This document shows positions 59,372 through 63,409 of a stretch of DNA of 64,000 nucleotides, one piece after another; positions within the stretch are counted from its first letter, which is position 1, and the number at the start of each line of letters is the position of its first letter. The stretch is taken from NCBI GenBank assembly GCA_051362555.1, contig CM120641.1:33858401-33922400 (forward strand). Reading direction: 5' to 3'. The notes under the pieces are model-generated. The model was not told where the DNA came from. It saw only the letters and a list, made by a program, of their open reading frames with translations, and ran no database searches. The translations under genes and the position numbers were made by a program. The stretch is from Lingula anatina (taxonomy: Eukaryota > Animalia > Brachiopoda).

Positions 59372-62300
59372 CTACACTGGCTTGTAGTCAAGTTTGGATT
59401 CCAATTTCTTGTTATCTGAAACTTTTCTCACAGCTTTCATGAAGTCTTCTTCTATCACATAGTCTCTTTCTGCTCTGATTGCAAACATTCCTGGAAAAAA
59501 GAGTTAACTGAACAGGTTAAAGAAAAAAAAAGAAAAAAAAATCAAACACCAAAGTATACCTACTTAAAATGCTGCAATTTAAAGTTTGAATATTTTCACA
59601 AATGAAATTTGGCTATCCAAACATAGGACCTGATGACAACCAAGTTACTTGACTGTGTACATCATGAATTTCTTTTTACCTGCTTCAGTGCAGACGTTTC
59701 GTAAATCTGCTCCATTGAAATCGTCAGATAGCTTAACTACAGCTTCCCAATCTGAAAAGCATATTCTTGGTCAGAAATTCATTATCTTTCATCATCATAA
59801 AGACTAAAATCTATCATACTGAATTAATATTCCCTTTTTTTAACCATATTACCATAAGATAGTTACCATGCTAAAAAACATTAGCTTCTGACTTCAGGAC
59901 CAATATTTACTTCTAAGATTAAAATGATATGACAGGCATAAAATGGATGCCCTTGCATTTCCATACCTATATCTCCATGCTTTGCTATTGGAGAAGCATG
60001 GATTTTCAAAATTTCCATCCTAGCTTGCTCATTTGGCAGTGGAATTTCTTAAAGTGGAGAAAGATATTCTCAGTGTTATTATTCAAAATTATAAACAACA
60101 GGCAAAACAGCTTTTAAATTAAAGACCGATTCATTAGTTGCAGTACTCTCTATACTATCCAACAGGCCCTCAGCTCTCATAATCGTTTTCATGGGAATCC
60201 CAGCTAGCACTGTGCCCAGTCATGGAAGACGGGGGAAGGAAGGCAGCAGGGGAGAGCCAGTAGAAAAGAAATGGTGAGAATTTAGGAAAGGGAAATACAA
60301 GAACAGGGTGGTGATTGGAGAGGAAATACAGGATCAGACTGACTGGGTCACAGGCTGCCCATCCTCAGAATAACGCGTCCTTTTATAATCATTGGGCCCT
60401 TTTTTTATCTGCCACAATACAAGGCAAAACAAATGACTTATTCCTCATTATTCTAAATCTGATCATTTTCTCAACTGTGACAGAAAATATTATTCCTCTG
60501 ATGTTATACCCAAAGGCAATAATAAATCTGTCCCCAAAGGTAATATCAAATACATCAATCTCCACATGTTGAAAAAATACAATGAAATGATGCTGTTTTA
60601 TCTTTCATTTCTGAATAATTTCAACTGTTTACATCACTTGCCTATTTTTCTGTCCAGTCTCCCGGGCCTAAGAAGAGCTGGATCTAAAGTGTCAGGTCTG
60701 TTGGTGGCCATTATAATCTTCACTTGACCTAAAGCATCAAAACCATCCATCTGGTTCAAAAGCTAAAAATAAGGAATATAAAGTTGTTGACCATGTCTGA
60801 ACCTATTACATGTATAATAAATAAATATACATACATAAATCAATTGATCCTAAAAATAATTTTTTAAATATCCCAGACCAACAGTGGTTTAATATCCTTT
60901 CTTAACAAAGTGTAAAGAAAATCTTTAAGTTTTAAAATGACAAATTATTTCATCATGATCAACACTGTCAATTTTGTTTTCTCATCTTCACATTTTCTTC
61001 AAGAGAAGCAAACAAAGAGAAAGCCTACTCATTTGAGATTATAATCAGAAATCATTTCTCAGTCACCCTAAGCCCTCATTCCCATTTTCAATCATACCTC
61101 CATTAATGTTCTCTGAATTTCTCTGTCTGCTGAAGTTCCTTCTGAGAACCTACGTCCACCTGTAACAAAGAAATACAACAACATTTACGACATGATATGT
61201 ATATTTTTTCCTCAGGTTATGTAATAGATCATCTCTACACCATCAAGACATTTCTTCTACAAGTTTTTGTAGTGTAATGAACACATGAAAAGCTACTTTA
61301 TGACAACGAGATGCCCCACCATGTTAATCAGACCCTGTACATACCTATAGCATCAATTTCATCCATGAATATGATACATGGCTGGTGGTCTCTGGCATAG
61401 GCAAACATTTCACGTATAAGCCTGGCACTTTCTCCAATATATTTGTCCACAATGGCACTGGACACAACCTGAAACACAGTCAACATTGTTAATCTGTCTT
61501 TGAAAATTTTAAATCAACAAACTTTAATAATGCTTTTGATAATGCCAATGTACCCTGCTTGTATTTTCAATCACCAACAGCCAATTAAGTAAAATAATTC
61601 TGAATCAAGGAAATTATAAATGCTATGGCATACCCTCTCTTATTCAGGTACATACCTTGAGAAAATTGGCTTCAATTTGACTGGCTACAGCTCTAGCTAG
61701 CAGTGTCTTTCCTGTACCTGGAGGGCCATATAACAGACAACCTTTTGGTGGTGTGATACCTACACGCATGAACAGCTCTGGGTTGAGAAGTGGCAATTCT
61801 ATCACCTACAAGGTAACCAATTCAGTAAAAAATTAAAGATGTTAGTGCTTAATTATAAAAAAAAATTACGAGCTAGAAGTTTATTTTAATCACCTTCAAA
61901 TACAACTAATTAACAAATAAAAAGAAACTGCTGCTATATAATTTCTCTCAACAGCAAAGTGCCTAGATTTATACATGCCCTCAGATCTCATAATCTTTTT
62001 CATAAGACACCCACCGGCTGACAGCCAAGCTGTTGAAAGGGAATACATTTAGAACTATAGGACTAACTTAAAGGAGGAAAGTTAGAATTAAAAAGTGACA
62101 GGGAAAATGAAGTAAAGAACTCAACAGCATGGCAGCCACACAGACCCATCCTCAAATGGCAATTTATCATCATTGGGCACATTGCTCATCATATATAACA
62201 GAACAAAGAAACCCAATTCCAATATCAATTATCTTTCAACTTTGAAACCTGACTGCATTGTAAATACCAGTGGGTATAAGCAAATACCAACACCACACAA

Positions 62301-63409
62301 TGAATAGCACATTATGTCAAAATTTAACACCTTAAGTAATCATTTGCTAATACCTCTCTTAATTCTCGGATTTGTTCACCCAAACCCCCAATTTCTGAGT
62401 AGTTGACTTTTCCTGGATCTTCTGTTGACATGTTGTACACCAAAGGATCAACCTCACGTGGCAAATGTCTGGAATAAGTGAGAGCCAAACACAGAATATA
62501 CAAAAGAAGACAAATGTTTTTTTACTTATTTCAAAAATGTACTTTTATAACAATTTAAATGATTCTAAGAGTGAAAAAAAAAACAAACTTCTGTACACAT
62601 GAAAGAAGTACCATTCCTTGTTTTTTATCAATTAAAATACATTAAGGTGTACAACCCATTAAAATACCTCATAATGGTCAGTGTTGTCATGTCCAGTGCC
62701 ACTCTGGTACCAGACTTAAGCTTAGCTTTATCCAGTTGTCTTCTACAACCAACAACATAGCGGGGTCCATTGGTGGCCTTCACAATAACTAAAAGTAGAA
62801 GGTTGACATTTTATCACAAGCAAAATAGGTAACAATATTCCCATGTTGCCTCCCTGACTGAATGAAAGTAAGTGATGATATTACTTAACTGTATGGTTAT
62901 TTTGAGGACAATTGGAATGTATATGATATCCCAAAATTATATCTATTGTTATATTCAAGTTTATATGATAATGCTAACACCCTCAGATCTCATAATCATT
63001 TTCAAAGGACACCCATCTATACATAATCTTAGCTGTTAGGAAGGAGAAAGGTGAGGAATAGTAAAAATAAAGTGAAAATGAAGTTTTTGCATGACAGGGA
63101 AAAAAGGGAGCAAGACCTAACAGGTAAGATGTCGTACAGACTTGTCCTCAACAGGCAGTTTGTCATCACTGGGCAAAATGATTTAAAATGTGTTTATATT
63201 TACTGTCAGTGTCATTGTAAGTTACTATCTGTGCATTTCTAAAAATAAGAGAGACAAAGACAATACTGACATACAATGACACTACTTACATTTATCCTCT
63301 GTCAACTGCTTCAACACCTCTCCAACAATCTGGCCAACACTTTGCAAAGCCTTCAGATCATTTTCTGATTTCTCATAATCTTTATTTAGCTCCCTCAGCT
63401 GCTCTCTCA
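59372..63409 (-). CDS. PSMC6: 26S proteasome AAA-ATPase subunit Rpt4 (regulatory subunit 10B); first exon not found in the window
   Basis: Exons on the - strand: 63409-63290, 62788-62668, 62468-62354, 61805-61656, 61468-61345, 61159-61098, 60762-60642, 60047-59967, 59751-59680, 59490-59372 (TAG). Translation includes [37 protein letters not shown], Walker A GPPGTGKT, Walker B IIFMDEID and C-terminal [12 protein letters not shown], near-identical to PSMC6. Confidence 0.97.
60165..60398 (-). ncRNA. SNORD97: Box C/D guide RNA, SNORD97 (U97) family
   Basis: Sense to PSMC6 and intronic: terminal stem GGCCC/GGGCC, C box ATGATTA, guide AAAAGGACGCGTTATT + D' CTGA, internal stem CTGTGACCCAGTCA/TGACTGGGCACAG around a pyrimidine-rich loop, guide GATTATGAGA + D box CTGA. 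Both ends match human SNORD97 as recalled. Confidence 0.85.
61976..62179 (-). ncRNA. Box C/D guide RNA, SNORD97/SNORD133-like paralogue 2
   Basis: TGCCC/GGGCA stem, C box ATGATGA, D'-like TTGA, internal stem GCTGTTGA/TCAACAGC, pyrimidine-rich loop, GATTATGAGAT + CTGA. Confidence 0.8.
62980..63173 (-). ncRNA. Box C/D guide RNA, SNORD97/SNORD133-like paralogue 3
   Basis: CCC/GGG stem, C box GTGATGA, D'-like TTGA, internal stem CTGTTAGG/CCTAACAG, pyrimidine-rich loop, GATTATGAGAT + CTGA. Confidence 0.78.

What the first reader, a model, noticed from the sequence alone, without database searches (positions are those of the whole stretch)
60165..63173. Three SNORD97-type tRNA-methylation guide RNAs hidden in PSMC6 introns
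Seen: three separate introns each carry a 190-235-nt element, sense to the host, with a terminal stem, C box, D'-like box, an internal stem closing a long pyrimidine-rich loop, and an invariant GATTATGAGA-N-CTGA end. The internal stems differ in sequence but keep pairing. Established: human SNORD97 and SCARNA97/SNORD133 guide 2'-O-methylation of wobble C34 of elongator tRNA-Met(CAU) and, as I recall, are hosted in EIF4G2 and LARP4. Here the guide is complementary to UCUCAUAAUC and the D+5 rule lands exactly on C34. Inference: this is an invertebrate tRNA-anticodon guide family that has expanded to three copies in a different host gene, a proteasome ATPase.
Basis: partly seen in the sequence, partly recalled or inferred. 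Interest (0 to 1): 0.85.

Follow-up and report, generated by a model that had tools for sequence, protein, structure and literature searches.

The report
Three tRNA-Met guide RNAs in PSMC6
Three introns of a lamp-shell proteasome gene each carry a copy of a small guide RNA whose human counterparts mark the wobble base of methionine tRNA; one copy accumulates as a separate RNA and all three likely do the same job, so this is a known RNA family in a new host gene, with one copy keeping a second guide arm that is predicted to reach a second tRNA site.

Summary
Three 200-236 nt box C/D elements lie sense in three read-confirmed introns of PSMC6/Rpt4 of a brachiopod (neighbouring gene 99% to Lingula anatina). 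Each matches the whole Rfam SNORD97 model, but below its cut-off (39.5, 34.1, 23.8 bits against 45). The D guide pairs with the tRNA-Met(CAU) anticodon loop with +5 on C34. Copy 3 is expressed: up to 90x stranded depth confined to it in one run; copies 1 and 2 lack read support. The copies are not equal: copy 3 keeps the human SNORD97 D' guide (11 of 11 nt), copies 1 and 2 do not, as in human SNORD133. That guide also pairs fully with mouse tRNA-Arg(ACG), +5 on A22, a lead only. None of 118 pattern-matched loci, which include 37 non-redundant homologues, matched PSMC6; nearby genes vary. The 2019 paper found one copy per invertebrate, but this scan already noted three-copy clusters in four other invertebrates (unchecked). 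Known family, new host; methylation in this animal is inferred.

The parts
62977..63176 (-). Copy 1, SNORD97/SCARNA97-family box C/D RNA, 200 nt; C box 63163-63169, D' 63148-63151, D guide 62987-62997, D box 62983-62986; no SNORD97-type D' guide
   Evidence: Rfam RF01291 23.8 bits, E 0.8, model 1-142; boxes; stem; read depth 0 in 4 of 4 runs
61975..62180 (-). Copy 2, same family, 206 nt; C box 62167-62173, D' 62152-62155, D guide 61985-61995, D box 61981-61984; no SNORD97-type D' guide; closest to copy 1
   Evidence: RF01291 34.1 bits, E 0.0044; depth 0.5-1.4 in 1 of 4 runs, 0 in the other 3
60164..60399 (-). Copy 3, dual-guide SNORD97-type RNA, 236 nt; C box 60386-60392, D' guide 60369-60379, D' box 60365-60368, D guide 60174-60184, D box 60170-60173
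   Evidence: RF01291 39.5 bits, E 0.00028; discrete stranded read pile-up to 90x in run X6; D' guide identical to human over 11 nt
60210..60353 (-). Copy 3 internal stem (arms about 60340-60353 and 60210-60222) closing a pyrimidine-rich loop
   Evidence: 14 of 15 listed read variants in copy 3 fall in the loop, 1 in the stem
59372..63409 (-). Host gene PSMC6/Rpt4 (26S proteasome regulatory subunit 10B): ten exons, nine introns in this stretch; the 5' exons lie upstream of 63409 and were not located
   Evidence: read joints; open spliced frame; last exon E 1.4e-15 to subunit 10B
62789..63289 (-). Host intron of copy 1 (GT-AG, 501 nt; element ends 188 nt before the 3' splice site)
61806..62353 (-). 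Host intron of copy 2 (GT-AG, 548 nt; 169 nt to the 3' splice site)
60048..60641 (-). Host intron of copy 3 (GC-AG, 594 nt; 116 nt to the 3' splice site)

Best explanation
The three elements are intron-encoded box C/D RNAs of the SNORD97/SCARNA97 family that are likely released from the spliced PSMC6 introns and are predicted to guide 2'-O-methylation of wobble C34 of elongator tRNA-Met(CAU). Shown: boxes, stems, intron position, family match, guide complementarity, and accumulation of copy 3 as a discrete RNA. Inferred from the human system: after splicing the intron is trimmed to the terminal stem, the C/D and C'/D' motifs load 15.5K, Nop56, Nop58 and fibrillarin, and the D guide opens the anticodon stem-loop (10 Watson-Crick pairs to U31-C40) so that the fifth base from the D box faces C34. 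Copy 3 has a second guide before a perfect D' box whose fifth base faces tRNA position 22 (or 10), as in human SNORD97; copies 1 and 2 are a later duplicate pair without that guide, as in human SNORD133. The stem-closed pyrimidine loop resembles the element that sends human SCARNA97 to Cajal bodies; that role here is a guess.
For: Full-length RF01291 matches at all three. The target stretch is invariant in the 20 vertebrate, Ciona, insect and plant tRNA-Met genes of Vitali and Kiss Fig. S4 (pairing worked by hand). Human knock-outs show both RNAs methylate C34. Copy 3: 96 reads in run X6, depth up to 90 within 60162-60403, at most 1 over 60404-60491 and 0 elsewhere in the intron, in the host's direction; same shape at low depth in X3 and X8. 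Read variants avoid boxes and guides (0 of 15 listed). The same architecture recurs in 37 non-redundant homologues, and 32 of 36 tested have an internal stem reached by at most 10 of 200 shuffles. Copy 3's D' guide equals the human one and gives the published G22 duplex.
Against: All three score under Rfam's gathering threshold. No Lingula tRNA-Met sequence was available (no genome held; no tRNA in the window). No methylation, fibrillarin binding or localisation data exist for this animal. Read depth at the ends of copy 3 is low, which weakens the variant argument, and no sharp ends were listed. Run X2's two reads ran past the 3' end into the intron.
Confidence: 0.88

Rival explanations
1. Only copy 3 is a working RNA; copies 1 and 2 are silent or decaying duplicates.
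For: No or nearly no reads on copies 1 and 2 in four runs in which copy 3 had 0.8-5x; lowest Rfam score for copy 1; imperfect D' and C' boxes.
Against: Copies 1 and 2 are only 73% alike at their ends yet both keep C box, D guide, D box, terminal stem and an internal stem that pairs best with its own arm. The libraries are poly(A), oligo-dT or unspecified, a poor way to see such RNAs. 33 of 37 homologues also lack the D' guide.
Confidence: 0.1
2. The main target of copy 3's D' guide is tRNA-Arg(ACG) A22, not tRNA-Met G22 or G10, so the RNA serves two tRNAs.
For: 12 consecutive pairs with the mouse tRNA-Arg(ACG) D arm, -17.3 kcal/mol, against 8 pairs and -13.5 with tRNA-Met, where the target base sits in a G.U pair. 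The register to the D' box is the same in copy 3 and in 4 of 4 homologues with this guide.
Against: Human PARIS2/PAR-CLIP chimeras: SNORD97 with tRNA-Met 335, with tRNA-Arg(ACG) 1. The two tRNAs share six D-stem bases, so part of the match is not independent. The two tRNA-Met registers (G10, G22) together explain most of the guide's conservation. No Lingula tRNA-Arg sequence was seen.
Confidence: 0.2
3. The elements are chance box-like intron sequence, or retained intron.
For: Sub-threshold Rfam scores; unremarkable whole-molecule folding energy for two copies.
Against: Three exact motif matches against 0.79 expected at 2 mismatches; read depth confined to the element; the same anatomy in 37 homologues.
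Confidence: 0.01

Closest known systems
Human SNORD97 (Rfam RF01291; EIF4G2 intron 13; Vitali and Kiss 2019, PMC6601510; Zhang et al. 2023, PMC10576143)
   Same: Intronic box C/D RNA; same D guide for tRNA-Met C34; copy 3 shares the AUGAUUA C box and 11 of 11 nt of the D' guide.
   Different: Host is PSMC6; 200-236 nt against a 142-position model; D box CUGA where the Rfam consensus has AUGA; scores under the gathering threshold; copies 1 and 2 lack the D' guide.
Human SCARNA97/SNORD133 (216 nt, LARP4 intron 10; PMC6601510)
   Same: Similar length; pyrimidine-rich interior of about 92-122 nt (93 nt in human); CUGA D box; D' guide diverged in copies 1 and 2, as Zhang et al. report for D133.
   Different: Cajal-body location untested. 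The tree of element ends does not join copies 1 and 2 to the fish LARP4-intron copies L004/L023. Copy 3 combines a SNORD97-type D' guide with a SCARNA97-length loop.
Invertebrate and plant SNORD97/SCARNA97 candidates (Vitali and Kiss 2019, Fig. S3C, legend only seen)
   Same: Same invariant D guide.
   Different: The paper reports one common gene in Drosophila, silkworm, honey bee, Arabidopsis, rape and Ciona; here one gene holds three copies of two types.
Archaeal box C/D sRNAs guiding tRNA-Met Cm34 (as described in PMC6601510 and PMC10576143)
   Same: Same target nucleotide and D+5 rule.
   Different: Not spliceosomal-intron encoded; sequences not compared here.

Membership tests
Box C/D guide RNA | 5' C box (RUGAUGA) and 3' D box (CUGA) closed by a terminal stem | tested here: met
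   Two perfect C boxes and one AUGAUUA as in the RF01291 consensus; CUGA in all; 5-6 bp stems
Box C/D guide RNA | Intronic, sense to a spliced host gene | tested here: met
   Read joints and spliced frame
Box C/D guide RNA | Accumulates as a discrete RNA (copy 3) | tested here: met
   Depth to 90x confined to 60162-60403 in X6; lower in X3, X8; exact ends not resolved
Box C/D guide RNA | Accumulates as a discrete RNA (copies 1 and 2) | tested here: inconclusive
Box C/D guide RNA | Binds fibrillarin, Nop56, Nop58, 15.5K and directs methylation | not testable with these tools
   Needs RIP and methylation mapping
SNORD97/SCARNA97 tRNA-Met guides | Invariant D guide complementary to tRNA-Met(CAU), fifth base on C34 | tested here: met
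   tested against other species' tRNAs, not Lingula's
SNORD97 (Rfam RF01291) | Score at or above the gathering threshold of 45 bits | tested here: not met
   39.5, 34.1, 23.8 bits. Only 1 of 20 homologue loci reached it, and the fish LARP4-intron copy did not, so the entry covers the vertebrate SNORD97 branch. Filed under the wider SNORD97/SCARNA97 family, not under the Rfam entry.
SNORD97 proper | Conserved D' guide for the tRNA D arm (copy 3) | tested here: met
   11 of 11 nt equal to human, followed by CUGA
SNORD97 proper | Conserved D' guide for the tRNA D arm (copies 1 and 2) | tested here: not met
   11-nt unrelated spacer before UUGA
SCARNA97 | Long pyrimidine-rich internal region | tested here: met
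   92, 98, 122 nt at 75, 70, 79% against 50.5% background; copy 2 equals the background maximum
SCARNA97 | Cajal-body localisation, WDR79/coilin binding | not testable with these tools
   Needs FISH or RIP
SCARNA97 | Orthology to the vertebrate LARP4-intron gene | tested here: inconclusive
   Tree of 96-nt ends is unresolved

The most novel reading that the evidence does not exclude
The split into a dual-guide SNORD97 type and a single-guide SCARNA97 type is older than vertebrates, and the second guide, unchanged from brachiopod to human, is really aimed at A22 of tRNA-Arg(ACG), an unrecognised RNA-guided tRNA methylation; Lingula would keep both types, long-looped, side by side in one proteasome gene.
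Probability: 0.17. Interest if true: 0.62.

Novelty: new member of a known kind. Interest (0 to 1): 0.33.

Why it matters
It extends the best-documented eukaryotic RNA-guided tRNA methylation to a brachiopod with read evidence for one copy, and shows that one copy per invertebrate, as reported in 2019, is not general. A protostome copy with the human SNORD97 D' guide intact argues that this second guide is ancient and selected, and offers one sharp test in existing human knock-out cells (A22 of tRNA-Arg(ACG) against G22/G10 of tRNA-Met). The standard Rfam cut-off misses all three copies, so annotation of such genomes undercounts the family. The basic mechanism is already known.

Tried and rejected
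Rfam at gathering threshold: 0 hits in the window. Whole genome: none held, so no Lingula tRNA-Met or tRNA-Arg, no genome-wide copy count and no look upstream of the window. ARAGORN: 0 tRNAs in the window. Run search: no RNA holder listed; nine runs came by species label. Orthologous PSMC6 introns: tblastn of the spliced host protein against the 118 metagenome loci found nothing; 38 of them hold at most 627 bases and the scan read 50 of 64 parts, so this is weak. Viral collection: 5 pattern matches, none with a stem-flanked C box. A viral search for tRNAs complementary to the D' guide gave 118 loci, 64 tRNA calls, 60 of them Arg(UCU); these say nothing about animal targets and were not used. 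Pairing of the copy 1 and 2 spacers with the tRNA-Met D loop (7 and 5 pairs, -10.7 and -6.9 kcal/mol) was set aside as probably chance, since the spacer varies freely among 33 homologues. Tree of ends (37 rows; L022, L056, L113 left out): the five D'-guide rows form one side of a branch at only 46/76 support, and the guide itself is in the alignment; an ancient duplication is neither shown nor excluded. Naming the host of L020/L026/L079 as RRP12 is recalled; the structure search was blank. Other Rfam matches (NPPA-AS1, mir-3, snoZ105 and others) are far below their thresholds and were rejected. Paper searches: PSMC6 + snoRNA + intron + host gene gave 0 papers; Lingula anatina + snoRNA gave 5 listings, none on this family by title or abstract start; SNORD97 + tRNAArg gave 5 listings, not opened.
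Full report
Observation. Rfam at its curated thresholds finds nothing in the window, but an E-value search of 59000-64000 matches the whole 142-position SNORD97 model (RF01291) at 60164-60399 (39.5 bits, E 0.00028), 61975-62180 (34.1, E 0.0044) and 62977-63176 (23.8, E 0.8); the threshold is 45. I call them copy 3, copy 2 and copy 1, numbered in the direction of transcription. 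Each has a 5-6 bp terminal stem, a C box, a D' box, a C'-like box and a CUGA D box.

Host and organism. Reads from four RNA runs (about 6% of three runs, 25% of one) give nine introns between 59491 and 63289. The ten exons splice to an open frame of a proteasome AAA ATPase. The last exon matches 26S regulatory subunit 10B/RPT4 at E 1.4e-15. The Walker A exon ranks two-domain p97/Cdc48 proteins first by summed score, with subunit 10B the best single-domain match shown. The elements lie sense in introns 62789-63289, 61806-62353 and 60048-60641, the last a GC-AG intron. The long exon of the neighbouring ASPP gene is 99% identical to a Lingula anatina protein, so the window is from a brachiopod.

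Structure. Whole-molecule folding is unremarkable (z -0.51, -2.23, +0.53 for copies 1, 2, 3), as expected with a long unpaired loop. The claimed internal stem is real: the 40 nt after D' pair with the 40 nt before C' at -34.5, -32.3 and -35.1 kcal/mol, reached by 0, 2 and 1 of 200 shuffles, and arms swapped between copies reach only -15.1 to -22.7. The loops are 92, 98 and 122 nt at 75, 70 and 79% pyrimidine; the rest of the introns averages 50.5% with a maximum 92-nt window of 71%.

Expression. On the copy 3 intron, run X6 gave 96 reads with depth up to 90 inside 60162-60403, at most 1 over 60404-60491 and zero elsewhere, all in the host gene's direction; X3 (6 reads) and X8 (15 reads) show the same shape; X2's two reads ran into the downstream intron. 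No sharp end pile-ups were listed. In the first four runs copy 3 had 0.8-5x, copy 2 had 0.5-1.4x in one run and none in three, and copy 1 none in four. Of 15 listed read variants in copy 3, 14 fall in the loop, one in the 3' stem arm and none in boxes or guides; depth at the ends is low and hid 16 rows.

Target of the D guide. Vitali and Kiss 2019 (PMC6601510; parts 1-3 of 4 of the text and the supplement's text read, figures not seen) showed by knock-out and rescue that human SNORD97 (EIF4G2 intron) and SCARNA97/SNORD133 (LARP4 intron) methylate C34 of elongator tRNA-Met and protect it from angiogenin, and that a 93-nt pyrimidine-rich region sends SCARNA97 to Cajal bodies. Their Fig. S4 lists 20 tRNA-Met genes with an invariant anticodon stretch. 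Paired by hand, the guide makes 10 Watson-Crick pairs with U31-C40, plus a G.U pair at G30 in copies 1 and 2; the fifth base from the D box faces C34. Lingula's own tRNA was not available.

The copies are of two types. Copy 3 has, before a perfect CUGA D' box, a guide identical over 11 nt to the human SNORD97 D' guide. Zhang et al. 2023 (PMC10576143; passages, section 10 and searches of supplements 1 and 3 seen; the SI appendix and Datasets S3, S5, S6 were too large to read) cross-linked this guide to the tRNA-Met D arm, predicting Gm22 or Gm10, and noted that the D' guide of SNORD133 has diverged. Copies 1 and 2 have an 11-nt unrelated spacer there. By end similarity they are each other's nearest sequence, while copy 3 is nearest to L036, a vertebrate-type SNORD97 that scores 64 bits.

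A second possible target. The copy 3 D' guide makes 12 consecutive pairs with the D arm of mouse tRNA-Arg(ACG) as printed in PMC7757669 (passages seen), -17.3 kcal/mol against -13.5 for tRNA-Met, with the fifth base on A22. Against this, human chimeras number 335 for tRNA-Met and 1 for tRNA-Arg(ACG), and the two tRNAs share six D-stem bases. Zhang et al. list position 22 as a predicted hotspot across tRNAs, so their unread Dataset S6 may already hold this prediction. The bioRxiv version has no 'Arg-ACG' or 'Am22' in its main text (passages), and PMC12645875 reports hybrids with tRNA-Met only in the passage seen. This is a lead, not a result.

Relatives. A pattern scan of metagenome contigs returned 118 loci (50 of 64 parts read). 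49 had a C box with a terminal stem of at least 4 pairs; I dropped 3 by eye as likely chance and 9 near-duplicates, leaving 37. Four of 37 (L020, L026, L036, L101) carry the SNORD97 D' guide, in the same register; the others have a short variable spacer. Of 36 long enough to test, 32 have the internal stem at no more than 10 of 200 shuffles, so it is a family trait. None of the 118 loci matched PSMC6. Pfam on 127 nearby sense-strand frames from 22 loci named CHD1 (L018, L042), RPL13 (L013, L041), midasin (L032), a CCT subunit (L053), a polyprenyl synthase (L045) and a UBM-repeat protein (L022); L004 lies in fish LARP4. I did not map splice sites in these loci. The family evidently moves between housekeeping genes. 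Only 1 of 20 homologue loci reached the Rfam threshold. A tree of the ends is unresolved.

Novelty. The family, target and invertebrate presence are published. Vitali and Kiss found only one common gene in the non-vertebrates they examined and placed the duplication early in vertebrates. I found no paper on PSMC6 as host or on this family in Lingula, within a library that lacks most subscription journals. Earlier notes of this scan describe three-copy clusters in an octopus, a sea squirt (TOP2), an acorn worm and a CHD1 gene; they are unchecked AI notes, though the CHD1 host agrees with L018 and L042. No look-alike of copy 3 was noted elsewhere. Verdict: a real, partly expressed, new member of a known kind. 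Methylation function 0.88; interest 0.33.

Noticed in passing
window 60048-60641 (-): The intron that hosts the expressed, dual-guide copy has a GC 5' splice site (GC-AG), the only one among nine introns; confirmed by read joints in four runs.
   Followed up: partly
window 60369-60381 (-): The D' guide shared with human SNORD97 is fully complementary to the D arm of mouse tRNA-Arg(ACG), fifth base on A22; only 1 supporting human chimera.
   Followed up: partly
window 63152-63162 and 62156-62166 (-): The short C-to-D' spacers of copies 1 and 2 can form 7 and 5 pairs with the tRNA-Met D loop; probably chance.
   Followed up: partly
window 60756-61345: A minor read joint (3-7 reads per run) skips from 60756 to 61345, across the 62-nt exon 61098-61159; may be exon skipping or a mapping artefact.
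   Followed up: no
window 51072-58200 (+): ASPP (apoptosis-stimulating of p53) gene, 99% to Lingula anatina, ends tail to tail about 1 kb from the PSMC6 stop codon.
   Followed up: partly
L022:546-654 (-): A compact 109-nt homologue without a pyrimidine loop, beside a UBM-repeat frame.
   Followed up: no
L013, L025, L041, L044, L073: A group of AT-rich homologues just upstream of RPL13 coding sequence with a highly conserved internal stem and a compensated terminal stem.
   Followed up: partly
L058:378-404 and 882-908: Two matches of the guide-end pattern about 500 nt apart on a 1363-nt contig, without a C box found by my filter.
   Followed up: no
L001, L049, L065, L085, L092, L099, L116: A recurring match in which the guide-end pattern follows a perfect C box with a 6-bp stem only 28 nt upstream, too short for this family; unexplained, possibly coding sequence.
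   Followed up: no
L124-L241: 60 of 118 viral-collection matches to the complement of the D' guide are tRNA-Arg(UCU) genes, many on giant-virus contigs.
   Followed up: no
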